Source of the DNA: Eledone cirrhosa
Lineage: Eukaryota
DNA length: 64,000 bases
Direction: 5' to 3'
NCBI GenBank assembly: GCA_964016885.1
Contig: OZ024741.1
Coordinates: 384,090,001-384,154,000 of the forward strand
This document shows, in pieces, positions 5,945 through 57,029 of this stretch. Made by a program: the position numbers and the translations under genes. Position 1 is the first letter of the stretch. Each line of letters opens with the position of its first letter. Below the pieces are notes generated by a model. The model did not search any database, was not told the origin of the DNA, and was given only the letters and a program-made list of their open reading frames with translations.

Positions 5945-6132
5945 GGAAAAGAGTCAGAACCTCGACGGCTGAGCTCCGGCCGTTTCGACAGCTAGATCCG
6001 AACTCTACTACTCTAAGTATATATATATATAGTGGTGGAACACTGGAAGGTAATATCCGTAGTGGTAGAGCAGTCAGTCCATGGTACGAGTTAGGTATAT
6101 ATATATATTTATATATATATATATATATTTAT

Positions 6133-7016
6133 AGAAAGATTTGAATGGATACAGTTTAGTTGAAAGGAATTTATTGACACGTGTTTCTATAACAGTTACA
6201 TAACCTAAAACAGCTGCTATCTACAAACTTTTAGTTATGCAGACATTCAATATTTCAATGTTATTATTTAATGTCATTTCATCAGAATAATATTACTGAG
6301 GACCTATTTAGTTTTTATAGAGAATATTAGGAGGGAGGGGTGAAGTTGTTAGAAGAATAGTTGAAGGAGTGGTTTTTCGATAGCAGTGAGAATTCTTGGT
6401 GGCAGTGAGTAATTAGATTCCCATCTGTTGTTTTGACATTTTTTATATAGAATATATTATTGGTTATTTTCCTAAATCTATAGAAGGATTAGAGATAGTA
6501 AAGATATGCGTGGTTGGTTTTGTGTTTGCACTTAATTAACATTCAGACTTTTACCCTAAAATGGGAAAAATTAGCTAAAACCCAAAGCTTTTCCAGGAGC
6601 CAGAATTTCTGCAAATTGTGTAATCTTGAGATTTATTACATAATCACACACAAGAAGAAACTGCTGAATAACAGAATTGAACGAACATTATTCTGCCGTC
6701 ACAGAACTAAAACCCTTTTTTCCCACTACAAGCCGAATATTACATAAAAGAGGGACATCCCCCAACTATATAAACCTTAATCTAGTTAGAAAAATATAAA
6801 AACAATCTCTTCTCAACATATATTAATAACCTTAAATTACCACACTAATAATGGAAAGATATGCTGATGAGAATAGGTACAAATATGCGATAATGAATGT
6901 GTCTAAAAACGTCCATAAGTATGTATATATATGTGAAAATGTATATAAATAAGTAAATATATATATATATGTTTGATGTGTATAGTTAGATGTAAGTGTA
7001 TTCATGTATTAAAGTG

Positions 7017-7081
<65 letters not shown>

Positions 7082-7910
7082 ATATGTGTATATGGATGTG
7101 TATGTATGTGTATGTGTGTACACATGGACTAGAGTATGTATGTATATATGTGTGTGTCTATACGTGTGTATATAAAGATAAGTTGAGTATGAAAATGTAT
7201 ACACATGAGCGCGTATGTATGTACATGAATACATGTGTGTATATATATGTGTATGCATGTGTATATATATGTAAGTATGAATATGTGAATTGTGAGTATA
7301 TGTATTTTGTAGAGGTGTGCAAATATATTTGTGTGTGAATGCGTGGGTGAAAGGATACGTACACTTGAAAGAAAAATTTAAGTCTGAATGTTAATTAAGT
7401 GCAAACACAAAACCAACCACGCATATCTTTACTATCTCTAATCCTTCTATAGATTTAGAAAAATAACCAATAATACATTCTATATAAAAAATGTCAAAAC
7501 AACAGATGAGAATCTAATTACTCACTGCCACCAAGAATTCTCACTGCTATCGAAAAACCACTCCTTCAACTATTCTTCTAACAACTTCACCCCTCCCTCC
7601 TAATATTCTCTATAAAAACTAAATAGGTCCTCAGTAATATTATTCTGATGAAATGACAGTAAATAATAACATTGAAATATTGAATGTCTGAATAACTAAA
7701 AGTTTGTAGATAGCAGCTGCTTTAGGTTATGTAACTGTTATAGAAACACGTGTCAATAAATTCCTTTCAACTAAACTGTATCCATTCAAATCTTTCTATT
7801 TTTCTCCGGATTACTTTTGGAACTACAACTGGAACCGTCGAGCAAACTCTACGTGAGCTGATAATCTACTGTGTGTAATATTTATATTACAACACAACGG
7901 AAAATACTGT
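6133..7910 (+). mobile_element. 5'-truncated Naiad-type Penelope-like element with inverted pseudo-LTR (arms ~6133-6550 and ~7380-7798), flanked by (AT)n
   Basis: 6560-6747 encodes KWEKLAK..FCKLCNLEIYYI..LLNNRIERTLFCRH, a Naiad-like endonuclease C-terminus (CxLC..E..LN.R.E...CRH). A ~420 bp inverted repeat and a hammerhead-like core at 7641-7686 are present. Confidence 0.75.
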
Positions 7911-10231: not shown

Positions 10232-10236
<5 letters not shown>

Positions 10237-10640
10237 GAGTTAAACGAGATTCACTGAGTACATAAAAGAATAAGTTTTACAGTAGATTGGAAGCACTCTA
10301 CAAATAAAATATTTTCCAGAGTTATTAATATTAAAATACAAATATTAATAAAATAGATGTTCTTTTGATCAATTAAATTTTATTATACATATTTCAGAGG
10401 TACAACAGTACATTCTCATCAGACAAAATATAATGATACATGACATTCCCTGATATGTTAAATGGTTAAGATTTAATCACTATCTTGATTAAATTTTAAC
10501 TATTTATTATCTCAGGGTATGTCACGTATCATTATATTTTGTCTGATGAGGACGTACTGTTGTACCTCTTAAATATGTATAATAAAATTTAATTTATCAA
10601 AAGAACATCTATTTTATTAATATTTGTATTTTAATATTTA
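10232..10640. mobile_element. Fold-back element (arms ~10327-10480 / ~10490-10638) with hammerhead-like core in each arm
   Basis: Imperfect inverted repeat. ctgatgag..gtac-tgtt-gtac..ct(g)aaatatgta at ~10540-10580 (+) and ~10385-10425 (-). Confidence 0.65.
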
Positions 10641-10664
10641 TATATATATATATATATATATATA

Positions 10665-11324
10665 GATTTTGAGTTTATGTTGGTTGTATACCAACACCTC
10701 AGTATGCAGGCTGGAGCACTCGACGAAGTGCGCAGGTTGGTTTGGTTACTCCGGAGTAGTGTAAAATAAAGTTAAATAAAAGTCAAATGATTAAAATTTA
10801 GCTTCGTTTATTACTGCTATATATATTTCAGTGACAGCCATCTTTGGCTGTGACCTCTTCAGGCAGTTTGAATTAGTATGGTATAGACAAGTACATATGT
10901 TGTTTAGGTGTATGATATTGTCAATACTCTGATATGCCCAGTTCCTTGTTGGGTTGTTAATTCACTGGGGAACTGGAGTCATATGAATTCAAACAAACGA
11001 ATTTTAGTGTCACAGGTCCCCTTCTCCTCTCATTGGTCAGTTATTATAATAACTGACCAATGAGAGGAGAAGGGGACCTGTGACACTAAAATTCGTTTGT
11101 TTGAATTCATATGACTCCAGTTCCCCAGTGAATTAACAACCCAACAAGGAACTGGGCATATCAGAGTATTGACAATATCATACACCTAAACAACATATGT
11201 ACTTGTCTATACCATACTAATTCAAACTGCCTGAAGAGGTCACAGCCAAAGATGGCTGTCACTGAAATATATATAGCAGTAATAAACGAAGCTAAATTTT
11301 AATCATTTGACTTTTATTTAACTT

Positions 11325-11331
<7 letters not shown>
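10665..11331. mobile_element. Perfect ~570 bp palindrome (centre 11046/11047) plus ~97 bp unpaired tail; hammerhead-bearing family H
   Basis: 10762-11046 is the reverse complement of 11047-11331. (AT)n lies on both sides. A second family member is at 35850-36330. Confidence 0.88.
11226..11280 (+). ncRNA. Type I hammerhead ribozyme (mirror copy 10813-10867 on -)
   Basis: actgc CTGAAGA ggtcacagcc-aaagat-ggctgtcact GAAA tatata TA gcagt: 5-bp stem I, long stem II, palindromic stem III. Confidence 0.85.
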
Positions 11332-11371
<40 letters not shown>

Positions 11372-12449: not shown

Positions 12450-13405
12450 GGAAAAAATGAAACGATATTTCATTTCCCACTCTTAGTACGGCTGTTACTT
12501 AAATATAAGTATGTACACGTACATACATATATGTATACCGACGTACAGTAGTATGTATATATATATATACATACATGCACACATATATATATGCACGTAT
12601 GGATTCACCGAACATTTATTATAATGCTCGGTGTGTTTGTAAACAAACATCCCGTATTAAGCCGTAGTGTCTAGCTACCACCGTTGCTCGTTTGTTCAAC
12701 ACTGACAAAGGAACGCTGTACTAGTTTCAAGCTTGTTAGCTATCGTCAGCAACGTATACCTTCCTGCCAGATTGTTGAACGTATATACTTACCTTATGCA
12801 TATTAACGGCTGAGTAGCCCAATTTGCATATCGAGTGGGTTAATCGGCCGAGTGCACCGAAAACGATAAACGGAAAAAATGAAACGATATTTCATTTCCC
12901 ACTCTTAGTACGGCTGTTACTTAAATATAAGTATGTACACGTACATACATATATGTATACCGACGTACAGTAGTATGTATATATATATATACATACATGC
13001 ACACATATATATATGCACGTATGGATTCACCGAACATTTATTATAATGCTCGGTGTGTTTGTAAACAAACATCCCGTATTAAGCCGTAGTGTCTAGCAAG
13101 GTATACGTTGCTGGAAGGTATACGTTGCTGACGATAGGTATACGTTGCAGGAAGGTATACGTTGCTGACGATAGCTAACAAGCTTGAAACTAGTACAGCG
13201 TTCCTTTGTCAGTGTTGAACAAACGAGCAACGGTGGTTGCTAGACACTACGGCTTAATACGGGATGTTTGTTTACAAACACACCGAGCATTATAATAAAT
13301 GTTCGGTGAATCCATACGTGCATATATATATGTGTGCATGTATGTATATATATACATACTACTGTACGTCGGTATACATATATGTATGTACGTGTACATA
13401 CTTAT
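12445..13405. mobile_element. Retrozyme-like family C: ~422 bp head-to-tail repeat (1.5 units) followed by an inverted copy
   Basis: Unit start aaacggaaaaaatgaaacgatattt at ~12445 and ~12868. Inversion begins after ~13097. Hammerheads at 12713-12755 (-) and 13159-13201 (+). Confidence 0.82.
13159..13201 (+). ncRNA. Type I hammerhead ribozyme (also 12713-12755 -, 14854-14896 -)
   Basis: acgttg CTGACGA t agct-aaca-agct t GAAAC ta GTA cagcgt. Confidence 0.85.
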
Positions 13406-16896: not shown

Positions 16897-16902
<6 letters not shown>

Positions 16903-18604
16903 CAATAACAAAGAACGCCTATGGCATATGCATATCTTTACTTGCTAACATTGTTTCATCCGCACTATAAGTGGGACTCATCAGAGCATAAATGTTGATT
17001 ACATATCACACAAGCAATAACAAATCCAAGACATTGAAGAAATAAAGAATAAAAAATAATAAAAGATAAAAAATATTGAGGAAGTAAAAATAAAAATAAA
17101 CATTGAAAAATAAACATTGAAAAATAATTGAAAAATAAGGGGTGCTATATTTTGAATGTATTATCCGTGGTGGTGGGTCTTGCCTAATGTGGTATTTCTG
17201 TGTTTAATATCAGCTTTGACCCGGGTGTCCTACGCTGTGTGTGTGTGCGTGTGTGTCTGTGTATACATTTATATGTGTATGGGTGTAGGTGGTTGTATAT
17301 GTCTGTATATAAAAATATATAAATATGTATACCGTCTCTGCATATGCATGTGGTGTGTATATGTGCATATACGTGCAGAACATATAGGTGTGTATAATCT
17401 TGAGATGTCCCAATGCGGTGACTTCATGATAGCTATTTTTTATATATCTTTTGTATGCGCTGTTGAGTATGCATATTAACCCGCCTGACCCAACTGTATT
17501 TGCTTGCTTTCGGCTAGCCCGCCTGCACCTGCTTGCTTTCGGCCCACTTGTCCGCCTCTTGCTGCTGCACGTGAATTCTCCTACCTTCCTTCGATGTACC
17601 TCTGTTGACCAGTGGACTCCTGCCCGGGTGTGAACCGGTTTGTGATTACCCCACCGCTCAACTGTGTGAATGCACACCCGTGACTTTCGAATGAACTTTT
17701 GAGACTGCCCAACCTGGGACGTCTCCATTGCATTGCAATGGTCAAGTGATACTGATAACTGTGACACTTAGGGCCTTCGCGGGTCCCTGATATATTCAAG
17801 AAATATATTCTAAAAAAATATATATCTTATCTCAATTTACTTTATTTTATTTTATTTTATTTAATTTCATTTTATTTTATTTTATTTATTTAATTTTATT
17901 TAATTATATCTTATATTATATTATTTTATTTTAGTTTATTTTATTTTATTTTATTTTATTTTATTTTATCTTATTTTATTATTATATTATATTATATTTT
18001 ATTTTATATAATTTTAATTTTAATTTAATTTTATTTTATTTTATTTCATTCCTTACCCTGTATCACTATTATCTGTATATTTTATATGTATGTTTTTTAT
18101 ATTTTCTTATATATATTATATGTCTATTTTTTACCTATTTTTCACCTATTTTTTATCTATTCTTACATACTCCTATCTATCTTATCTATTCTTGTCTGTT
18201 CTCTTATCCATGTGTATGCTTGTATGTAACTATATGTTGACAGCACCCCGCCCAACTGTGACTGATAGCACCCCTTATTTTTCAATTATTTTTCAATGTT
18301 TATTTTTCAATGTTTATTTTTATTTTTACTTCCTCAATATTTTTTATCTTTTATTATTTTTTATTCTTTATTTCTTCAATGTCTTGGATTTGTTATTGCT
18401 TGTGTGATATGTAATCAACCTTTATGCTCTGATGAGTCCCACTTATAGTGCGGATGAAACAATGTTAGCAAGTAAAAATATGCATATGCCATAGGCGTTC
18501 TTTGTTATTGATTATATCACGGCTCTGTCCTCAGACATCGAGCTAACCTTATACTGCCTGTTGGATAAGTGGAGTGTTATACACCCCTGATCCTCTCCCT
18601 AATA

Positions 18605-35753: not shown

Positions 35754-35849
<96 letters not shown>

Positions 35850-36330
35850 TGAGTATATGTTGATTGTATACCAACACCCTAGTATGCAGATTGGAGCACT
35901 CGACGAAGTGCGCAGGTTGGTTTGGTTACTCCGGAGTAATGTAAAATAAAATTAAAATAAATAAGTCAAATGTTTAAAGTTTGGCTTCGTTTATTACTGC
36001 TATATATATTTCGGTGACAGCCTTCTTTGGCTGTGACCTCTTCAGGCAGTCCGAATTAGTGTGGTAGAGGCGAGTACACATGTTTTTGAGGTGTTTAACT
36101 TTGTCAATACTCTGATATGCCCAGTTCCTGGTTGGGTTATTATTTCATGAAATAACAACCCAACCAGGAACTGGGCATATCAGAGTATTCGTCTTTACCA
36201 CACTAATTCGGACTGCCTGAAGAGGTCACAGCCAAATATGGCTGTCACCGAAATATATATAGCAGTAATAAACGAAGCCAAATTTTAAACATTTGACTTA
36301 TTTATTTTATTTTATTTTATTTTATTTTTA
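35850..36330. mobile_element. Second copy of fold-back family H (turn at ~36147), hammerheads 35996-36050 (-) and 36212-36266 (+)
   Basis: Homologous to 10665-11331 with the same unpaired tail but a different fold-back point. The right arm has a small deletion. Confidence 0.85.
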
Positions 36331-38177: not shown

Positions 38178-38181
<4 letters not shown>

Positions 38182-39763
38182 TGAAACAAAATTAAAACGA
38201 AATTTCATTTCTCACTCTTAGTATGGCACTTACTTAAATGTAAGTATGCATGTATACGTACATACATATATGTATACAGACGTACAGTAGCATGCACATA
38301 TATATATATATATACATATGCATACAGGTACACATACATATATGCACGTATCAGTTTAGCGGCGCTAACGTCGCTTTGTTCGTTTGTAAACAAACTGAAC
38401 AGCCTGAATTTATGCCATACGGTGTTAAGGCAACCACGTCACCTTTTTGTTCAACACTGACACAGGAACGATGTACTAGTTTCAAGCTTGTTAGCTATCA
38501 TCAGCACCGTTTACCCATCTGCCAGATAGTTGAACGTTCGAAAGTATATACTTTCGAACGTTCAACTATCTGGCAGATGGGTAAACGGTGCTGATGATAG
38601 CTAACAAGCTTGAAACTAGTACATCGTTCCTGTGTCAGTGTTGAACAAAAAGGTGACGTGGTTGCCTTAACACCGTATGGCATAAATTCAGGCTGTTCAG
38701 TTTGTTTACAAACGAACAAAGCGACGTTAGCGCCGCTAAACTGATACGTGCATATATGTATGTGTACCTGTATGCATATGTATATATATATATATATGTG
38801 CATGCTACTGTACGTCTGTATACATATATGTATGTACGTATACATGCATACTTACATTTAAGTAAGTGCCATACTAAGAGTGAGAAATGAAATTTCGTTT
38901 TCATTTTGTTTCAATTTATCGTTTTCGGTATGCCTGACCGATTTAACTCACTCAATATGCAAATTAGGCTGCTCAGCCGTTAATTTTCATAAGGAAAGTA
39001 TATACTTTCGAACGTTCAACTATCTGGCAGATGGGTAAACAGTGCTGATGATAGCTAACAAGCTTGAAACTAGTACATCGTTCCTGTGTCAGTGTTGAAC
39101 AAAAAGGTGACGTGGTTGCCTTAACACCGTATGGCATAAATTCAGGCTGTTCAGTTTGTTTACAAACGAACAAAGCGACGTTAGCGCCGCTAAACTGATA
39201 CGTGCATATATGTATGTGTACCTGTATGCATATGTATATATATATATATATGTGCATGCTACTGTACGTCTGTATACATATATGTATGTACGTATACATG
39301 CATACTTACATTTAAGTAAGTGCCATACTAAGAGTGAGAAATGAAATTTCGTTTTCATTTTGTTTCAATTTATCGTTTTCTGTATGCCTGACCGATTTAA
39401 CTCACTCAATATGCAAATTAGGCTGCTCAGCCGTTAATTTTCATAAGGAAAGTATATACTTTCGAACGTTCAACTATCTGGCAGATGGGTAAACGGTGCT
39501 GATGATAGCTAACAAGCTTGAAACTAGTACATCGTTCCTGTGTCAGTGTTGAACAAAAAGGTGACGTGGTTGCCTTAATACCGTATGGCATAAATTCAGG
39601 CTGTTCAGTTTGTTTACAAACGAACAAAGCGACGTTAGCGCCGCTAAACCGATACGTGCATATATGTATGTGTACCTGTATGCATATGTATATATATATA
39701 TATATGTGCATGCTACTGTACGTCTGTATACATATATGTATGTACGTATACATGCATACTTAC

Positions 39764-39767
<4 letters not shown>
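38178..39767. mobile_element. Retrozyme-like family C (diverged subfamily): inverted unit + 2.7 tandem 454 bp units, four hammerheads
   Basis: Palindrome centre 38547/38548. CTGATGA at 38591, 39045 and 39499 (spacing 454), with a mirror at 38467-38511. (AT)n flanks. Confidence 0.88.
38584..38628 (+). ncRNA. Type I hammerhead ribozyme (repeats at 39038-39082, 39492-39536)
   Basis: aacggtg CTGATGA t agct-aaca-agct t GAAAC ta GTA catcgtt, with a 7-bp stem I. Confidence 0.88.
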
Positions 39768-56465: not shown

Positions 56466-56658
56466 AGGAAAAAGTATGACCCCGACGGCAGAGCTCAAGC
56501 CGTTTCGACGGCTATTTCAGTCCAGAAATAGCCGTCGAAACGGCTTGAGCTCTGCCGTCGGGGTCATACTTTTTCCTATTTCCCACTCTACTACCCTAAG
56601 TATTGAGTACTCTGGTGCGTTATGGTCCATCTGGTTCCTTACCACAATTCCTTTGTTA
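56466..56658. repeat. Short fold-back family D (also 5944-6018, 36632-36773)
   Basis: ~55 bp hairpin plus ~80 bp tail. It keeps only the 3' half of a hammerhead: GAAAC ggc-ttgagctct-gcc GTC. Confidence 0.75.
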
Positions 56659-56819
56659 TATATATATACGAAATTCCTATGCATATCTGTATACAGCTAT
56701 GCTTGAAGCTAAATCCTAATTATAAGTTAAACCAACTTATGCAGCTTCATATGCAAATGAGATTAATCATCTCATTTACACAGACGAGAAATTCAAGTCC
56801 AGCAGTAGATTGTGGGAGG

Positions 56820-56865
56820 AATCGTCCTGATGAGGATCACTTAAGTCCGAAATGTATCGACGATT
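56820..56865 (+). ncRNA. Type I hammerhead ribozyme
   Basis: aatcgtc CTGATGA ggat-cacttaa-gtcc GAAA tgta TC gacgatt, with a perfect 7-bp stem I. Confidence 0.85.
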
Positions 56866-57029
56866 GCTTCTGCTGGACACCACCTGAGGGCGTTAGCCCC
56901 GGTGTTATTTGCATAGCTACGGCTTTCTAGATGTTTACCTGTAAACATACCGTGTTTCTTTAGAAATACGAAATTTCTGTACATATATATGTGTGTGTGG
57001 TTGTGTGTGTGTGTGTGTGTGTGTATGTC

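What the first reader, a model, noticed from the sequence alone, without database searches (positions are those of the whole stretch)
10665..11331. Spacerless fold-back palindrome with one-sided tail; sister copy turns at a different point
Seen: a perfect ~285 bp x2 palindrome with a hammerhead in each arm and ~97 bp extra on one side only. The homologue at 35850-36330 has the same tail and the same outer end but folds back earlier. Established: PLE insertions often have an inverted 5' pLTR and a 3' tail. Inference: each insertion creates its own hairpin, for example by snap-back self-primed second-strand synthesis, so the palindrome is a product of integration rather than a TIR.
Basis: partly seen in the sequence, partly recalled or inferred. 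Interest (0 to 1): 0.75.

Follow-up and report, generated by a model that had tools for sequence, protein, structure and literature searches.

The report
Twin-primed Penelope retrotransposon end palindrome
The palindrome is two head-to-head copies of the ribozyme-bearing end of a young, abundant Penelope-like jumping gene inserted into a TA repeat, a layout already described for these elements, and the family's copies show it was likely made by copying one RNA twice from the two ends of a DNA cut rather than by one copy folding back on itself.

Summary
Observation confirmed: exact 285-bp arms, no spacer, a 97-bp one-sided tail, a hammerhead motif in each arm. It is a 5'-truncated insertion of a young 4.1-kb Penelope-like element (892-aa ORF, Hydra-clade motifs) into (TA)n; 1,369 tail-less and 996 tailed ends match exactly genome-wide. 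One-copy snap-back fails as the general rule: the tail-less arm is the longer in 32 of 51 asymmetric copies, and in 10 copies the tailed arm lies wholly inside the tail. Yet both arms carry the same subfamily alleles (54 concordant, 2 discordant; shuffled 9 and 52). Best reading: both cut strands prime on one RNA at two fixed starts 97 nt apart, and the cDNA ends join head to head. The layout is published, with self-priming as the published explanation. This scan reached the twin-priming reading before on other DNA of this genome. This locus's own junction was not seen in four read sets (inconclusive).

The parts
10639..10664 (.). (TA)n target remnant, tail side
10665..10761 (-). 97-nt tail: the start of the next tandem unit (5' leader before the ORF; in tandem copies it runs on into the ORF). 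Its outer end is the downstream reverse-transcription start (inferred)
   Evidence: 704+292 exact ends against TA
10762..11046 (-). Tailed arm: last 285 nt of the element's 3' end (pseudo-LTR), relative positions -284 to 0
   Evidence: 100% identical over 382 nt to 29 other loci fetched
10814..10866 (-). Minimal type I hammerhead motif, left arm
11046..11047 (.). Head-to-head junction, no spacer and no templated overlap (both arms stop at -284; parent continues with other bases)
11047..11331 (+). Tail-less arm, -284 to 0; outer end is the upstream reverse-transcription start (inferred)
   Evidence: 1,369 exact ends against TA
11109..11109 (+). Position -222: family-wide hotspot of arm 5' ends (likely 5' end of a short RNA); not used as the turn in this copy
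11227..11279 (+). Minimal type I hammerhead motif, right arm; predicted cut after 11275 (-56)
   Evidence: cleavage not tested
11332..11368 (.). (TA)n target remnant, tail-less side
35846..36147 (-). Sister copy (other subfamily, 89%): tail plus tailed arm, -202 to +96
36148..36329 (+). Sister copy: tail-less arm from -202, with a 33-nt deletion and T-rich outer extension

Best explanation
The palindrome is a 5'-truncated insertion of a young Penelope-like retrotransposon into (TA)n, whose two head-to-head arms were likely made by two reverse transcriptions of one RNA primed from the two cut target strands. Shown: the parent is a 4,135-bp tandem-forming element with an RT plus C-terminal GIY-YIG-type ORF; outer ends are fixed at position 0 and +96/+97; inner ends vary; either arm can be longer; both arms carry the same alleles. 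Inferred: the endonuclease opens both strands of (TA)n; one 3' end primes at +97 (3-nt TAT match to the target) and the other at 0 (2-nt TA match), so only one arm has the tail; where the cDNAs overlap the second polymerase displaces the first cDNA; the two cDNA 3' ends are then joined by short microhomology, blunt, or with a short insert, and each serves as template for the other's second strand. When both stop at the same base (run-off at the RNA's 5' end, or a U-turn switch onto the displaced cDNA) the result is a spacerless palindrome, as here at -284. The palindrome is a by-product with no sign of a function of its own.
For: Parent ORF and motifs; homologue P0025 passes Pfam RVT_1. Exact end counts 1,369 vs 704+292. 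113 of 147 scored loci two-armed; partner ends unselected yet fixed: 42 of 47 within 7 nt of 0, 59 of 66 at +95 to +97. Tail-less arm longer in 32, tailed arm longer in 19, within 15 nt in 62 (shuffled mean 22, max 36; outside the hotspot 27 of 53, shuffled mean 4.8). Tailed arm wholly inside the tail in 10 copies. Solo arms of both kinds exist. Alleles: 54 concordant, 2 discordant in 85 copies, shuffled 9.4 and 52.0; in the 32 asymmetric ones 20 and 0; youngest set, 21 pairs: 0 discordant at recurrent sites. Microhomology of 2 nt or more at 25 of 34 simple asymmetric joints, 16% expected. Centres at -222 occur in two registers (4-nt and 2-nt overlap) expected from two identical ends annealing. 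In vitro, a Poseidon PLE cuts and extends both strands and has two RT starts that bound the tail (PMC11167929). Raw reads of another study hold opposite-strand joints at -222/-85, -220/-105 and -217/+63.
Against: No biochemical test. Allele sharing alone is equally expected from snap-back or from two RNAs of one source locus. Some symmetric centres sit on natural hairpins with a retained loop (L177 on ribozyme stem II, L128, L142, L226), and a few copies have only a short fold-back after the turn (L068, L157, L172), which fits local snap-back. Rapid deletion of palindrome centres soon after insertion is not excluded. 0 of 30 copies that run from the tail into the ORF start at -222, so the hotspot is not the 5' end of the ORF-bearing template, as I first assumed. 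This locus's own junction was not bridged in four runs. Microhomology lengths come from local alignments and may be inflated.
Confidence: 0.7

Rival explanations
1. One cDNA, primed at the tail end, folds back on its own 3' end and copies itself to position 0. It could account for the symmetric and tailed-arm-longer copies, this one included.
For: 62 of 113 copies are near-symmetric, far above chance; several centres are natural hairpins or palindromes; arms share alleles; short fold-backs exist.
Against: 32 of 51 asymmetric copies have the tail-less arm longer and 10 have non-overlapping arms; retained loops belong to either arm (L177, L212, L226 tail-less; L052, L128, L142, L228 tailed); solo tail-less arms exist, so position 0 is a start in its own right; this copy's centre has no templated stem or loop.
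Confidence: 0.12
2. All insertions begin as perfect hairpin-derived palindromes and unstable centres are later deleted asymmetrically, giving the varied turn points.
For: Long perfect palindromes are known to be revised by central deletions (recalled, no call); microhomology at joints fits deletion too; the sister copy has an internal deletion.
Against: Arm-to-arm divergence is the same in symmetric and asymmetric copies (74/9197 vs 50/6942, p=0.59, L240 dropped); 14 of 15 youngest long copies tabulated are asymmetric; asymmetric and solo arms keep the exact -222 end; it would need multi-kb palindromes as precursors (L161, L239).
Confidence: 0.1
3. Two separate RNA molecules prime the two target ends (dimeric enzyme, two templates).
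For: Same geometry; a dimer was predicted for the Anolis PLE protein (PMC11167929); 2 discordant sites were seen.
Against: Discordance 2 against 52 expected for random pairing; tight coupling of the two arm lengths. Only two RNAs from the same source locus remain possible.
Confidence: 0.05
4. Library or assembly artefact (fold-back chimera).
For: This locus's junction was not bridged in X1-X3 or X23.
Against: The mirror stops at the element's own fixed ends; flanks differ; mirrored unique flank in only 1 of 103 complete copies; older copies have diverged arms; opposite-strand joints in raw reads of another study.
Confidence: 0.03

Closest known systems
Typical EN+ PLE insertion unit: inverted 5'-truncated pLTR plus one-sided tail (Craig et al. 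2021, PMC8557442, Fig. 2 legend; Arkhipova et al. 2013, PMC3846280; passages read)
   Same: Head-to-head inverted truncated copy, tail on one end only, partial tandems, hammerhead in the pLTR, tail formed from the start of the next unit, palindromes at the inverted junction.
   Different: Tail is 97 nt, not 30-40. Those papers ascribe the junction palindromes to self-priming on an antisense template and the tail to endonuclease resolution; the copy census here favours two primings on one RNA.
Hydra clade of C-terminal EN+ PLEs (PMC8557442, passages read)
   Same: RWK, DKT, CxCx5C linker, CxxC and CxH around the catalytic E/N, no second Cys pair in the GIY-YIG core, hammerhead, (TA)n target.
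   Different: 4.1 kb against generally under 3 kb, with a long low-complexity stretch between RT and EN (892 aa against 493-803 aa in homologues). No tree with named Hydra references was built.
Poseidon PAc of Anolis in vitro (Frangieh et al. 2024, PMC11167929; parts 1-2 of 4 of the text read)
   Same: Internal initiation at two sites that bound the tail; both DNA strands cut and extended; AT-rich targets.
   Different: Other clade; in the parts read the paper does not explain head-to-head arms or test joining of the two cDNAs.
LINE-1 twin priming (recalled; term seen in search listing)
   Same: Both target strands prime on one RNA, giving an inverted segment joined by microhomology.
   Different: In L1 the second priming site is variable and the pieces mostly do not overlap; here it is fixed 97 nt from the first, so the arms duplicate each other.

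Membership tests
EN+ Penelope-like element | Single ORF with RT and C-terminal GIY-YIG endonuclease in the parent | tested here: met
   892-aa ORF in L038 with RT motifs (LDIASYY, YRDD) and IVYG..YIG; the protein itself has no Pfam hit above cut-off; homologue P0025 passes RVT_1; GIY-YIG read from motifs only
EN+ Penelope-like element | Partial tandems forming pseudo-LTRs | tested here: met
   4,135-bp period in L031 and L033; 53 exact tail-to-ORF junctions
EN+ Penelope-like element | Inverted 5'-truncated copy and one-sided tail | tested here: met
   113 of 147 scored loci
EN+ Penelope-like element | Hammerhead motif in the pLTR | tested here: met
   Core and stems I/II; no Rfam hit
EN+ Penelope-like element | Target-site duplication | tested here: inconclusive
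   Hidden in (TA)n; TA on both outer sides in 87 of 103 complete copies
Hydra clade PLE | RWK motif and DKT motif | tested here: met
   RMRWKA at aa 35, ADKTNN at aa 119
Hydra clade PLE | CxCx5C linker; CxxC and CxH near catalytic E/N; CCHH absent | tested here: met
   CNCRNPESC, CKLCLNE, CRH; only one Cys inside the GIY-YIG core
Hydra clade PLE | (TA)n insertion preference | tested here: met
   one end of each sampled copy was selected for TA, the other was not
Hydra clade PLE | Generally shorter than 3 kb | tested here: not met
   4,135 bp; a tendency in the paper, not a strict criterion
Hydra clade PLE | RT phylogeny within the Hydra clade | not tested
   No named reference sequences were fetched
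Minimal type I hammerhead ribozyme | Self-cleavage | not testable with these tools
   Indirect only: L182 has both arms ending at -55; 13 of 30 ORF-linked copies start at or downstream of the predicted cut
MITE / fold-back DNA transposon | Fixed terminal inverted repeats and fixed internal structure across copies | tested here: not met
   95 distinct turn pairs in 113 copies; one end has a 97-nt tail; solo arms exist

The most novel reading that the evidence does not exclude
Penelope-like elements integrate by default through twin priming on a single RNA at two hard-wired start sites, with the two cDNAs priming each other's second strand head to head; in this family most stubs come from a short ORF-less RNA starting at -222, whereas ORF-bearing templates start at the hammerhead cut. 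That would replace the published self-priming explanation of PLE inverted repeats and give the ribozyme a role in setting the template's 5' end.
Probability: 0.45. Interest if true: 0.62.

Novelty: new member of a known kind. Interest (0 to 1): 0.35.

Why it matters
How PLEs make their tandem and inverted structures is named as an open question in PMC8557442, and the published guess is self-priming (PMC3846280). A young family with over a thousand near-identical copies lets arm geometry and allele sharing discriminate between models, and gives exact start sites (0, +97) for an in vitro test. The single palindrome is ordinary; the value lies in the census, and this scan has already drawn the same reading from other families in this genome.

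Tried and rejected
Rfam: only generic hairpin (miRNA-type) matches below gathering score, no hammerhead family. Pfam on the parent protein and PDB sequence search: nothing informative. Sequencing-run search: no RNA holder listed, so expression was not examined. Laying X1-X3 and X23 on the 80 nt around this junction: no record crossed it; inconclusive, since the samples may lack so young an insertion and records are filtered. Idea that -222 is the start of the ORF mRNA: rejected, 0 of 30 ORF-linked copies start there. Idea that -222 is an intrinsic RT stop: rejected, none of the 13 ORF-linked copies whose upstream part extends past it ends there, whereas 83 of 260 arm ends do. Idea that the hammerhead cut sets most turn points: rejected, 6 of 260 ends at -45 to -62. 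Cap-copy C after -222: seen after a few ends but mostly explained by overlap, not pursued. MITE/TIR reading rejected. Paper searches listed no paper whose title or abstract proposes twin priming for PLE inverted arms; subscription journals and supplements were not seen, so absence from print is not shown.

Full report
Observation. The window holds an exact inverted repeat, arms 10762-11046 and 11047-11331, 285 nt each with no spacer, plus 97 nt on the left only (10665-10761), between (TA)n runs. Each arm has a minimal type I hammerhead motif; folding gives stems I and II; Rfam lists no hammerhead family. The sister at 35846-36329 is 89% identical, has the tail, turns 82 nt earlier and carries a 33-nt deletion in one arm. 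Positions below are relative to the tail-less outer end (0 = window 11331; tail = +1 to +97).

Parent element. A search of the own genome with arm plus tail gave 1,036 candidates, 40 scored, and 30 loci fetched that are identical over all 382 nt, this one included. Longer stretches show a 4,135-bp tandem unit in which the tail runs on into an ORF. [quoted passage not shown] It has the RWK, DKT, CxCx5C, CxxC and CxH motifs that PMC8557442 gives for the Hydra clade (passages read), conserved in most of 16 aligned homologues of the 42 found. Pfam does not recognise the protein itself; one of seven homologues scanned passes RVT_1. No tree was built.

Census. Exact patterns count 1,369 tail-less ends and 704 + 292 tailed ends against TA. 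I fetched 90 tail-less-anchored and 70 tail-anchored loci, all from contig C1 and from the first 100 listed in each search. Seven duplicates were removed (153) and six that ran off the fetched DNA were dropped (147). Of these 113 are two-armed head-to-head and 34 solo or other; three spurious short second arms were counted as solo, and a few solos have very short second arms by eye. The unselected partner end is fixed: 42 of 47 within 7 nt of 0, 59 of 66 at +95 to +97. Inner ends vary from 27 to about 3,100 nt, in 95 distinct pairs. So the palindrome is made at each insertion and is no TIR.

Which mechanism. Snap-back of one cDNA needs the tailed arm to be the longer. Found: tail-less arm longer in 32, tailed arm longer in 19, within 15 nt in 62. 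In 10 copies the tailed arm lies wholly inside the tail, so neither arm can be a copy of the other. Both arms are therefore primed on RNA in at least these copies. They use one template: at nine diagnostic sites in 85 copies, 54 minor alleles are shared by both arms and 2 are discordant, against 9.4 and 52.0 after shuffling (14 complex, edge or misaligned loci and overlaps under 30 nt left out). In 21 young pairs no recurrent site is discordant, though 37 private differences exist. Arm lengths are coupled beyond chance, also outside the hotspot (27 of 53 against 4.8). Simple asymmetric joints show 2 nt or more of overlap in 25 of 34 (16% expected). Outer ends share 2-3 nt with the TA target. 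This fits the in vitro behaviour of an Anolis PLE: both strands cut and extended, two starts bounding the tail (PMC11167929, parts 1-2 of 4 read). The steps of cutting, displacement and joining are inferred. In this copy both arms stop at -284 and join without templated overlap, which suits two equal cDNA ends or a U-turn switch better than a hairpin with a loop.

Results against. Some centres are natural hairpins with a loop, and some copies have only a short fold-back, so local snap-back likely contributes. Early deletion of centres is disfavoured (equal arm divergence in symmetric and asymmetric copies, p = 0.59, one outlier dropped; 14 of 15 young long copies asymmetric) but not excluded. 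83 of 260 arm ends fall at -219 to -226, as do 15 of 30 tailed arms fetched for the sister subfamily. I first took this for the mRNA start, but 0 of 30 fetched ORF-linked copies (of 53) start there, while 13 start between -57 and +61, at or after the predicted ribozyme cut. The hotspot more likely marks a short ORF-less RNA.

Artefact check. The mirror ends at element ends and the flanks differ; 1 of 103 complete copies had a mirrored unique flank. Raw reads of another study show three opposite-strand joints at the hotspot, one with the second arm inside the tail. This locus's own centre was not bridged in four runs, which is inconclusive; no unamplified long reads were available.

Comparison. 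The layout is described as typical for PLEs in PMC8557442 and PMC3846280 (passages read); the latter explains junction palindromes by self-priming. Five paper searches listed none proposing twin priming for PLEs, within a library that lacks most subscription papers; supplements were not read. L1 twin priming and palindrome instability are recalled. Earlier notes of this scan on other DNA in this genome reach the same twin-priming reading; my reading was noted before that look-up, and those notes are not independent evidence.

Verdict. Real, a new member of a known kind, likely Hydra clade; first reading partly supported; interest 0.35.

Noticed in passing
window 6131-7799, 16901-18512, 56466-56960: Head-to-head inserts of other, unrelated families beside (TA)n, each with a hammerhead-like motif (7645, 18429/16984, 56827); the first ends in a coding-like stretch resembling the same endonuclease end.
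   Followed up: partly
window 38178-39766: Second long spacerless palindrome (354 nt exact arms) centred on a natural 16-nt palindrome of its unit, followed by about 2.7 tandem copies of a ~450-bp ORF-less unit; related sequence at 12480-13400.
   Followed up: partly
window 10232-10638: An older fold-back of another family (92% arms, about 95 nt extra on one side, CTGATGA core) abuts the finding across one TA run.
   Followed up: no
L241-L270: 5' ends of ORF-linked copies pile up at or just after the predicted hammerhead cut (13 of 30 between -57 and +61), and L182 has both arms ending exactly at -55: a hint that the ribozyme sets the 5' end of some templates.
   Followed up: partly
L057, L139, L143, L160, L182, L211, L213: Junction inserts are short templated repeats of nearby arm sequence, like polymerase-theta end joining or RT slippage (the comparison is recalled).
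   Followed up: no
L031, L032, L043: In a few copies both arms carry the tail, or the long ORF-bearing arm ends at 0 and the short arm has the tail, so either start can serve either strand.
   Followed up: partly
one search runs X4, X6-X12: Runs labelled with eight other organisms hold 0.26-0.74 of the sampled words; X4 was laid and carries near-identical pieces at low depth. Related hosts, transfer or contamination were not told apart.
   Followed up: no
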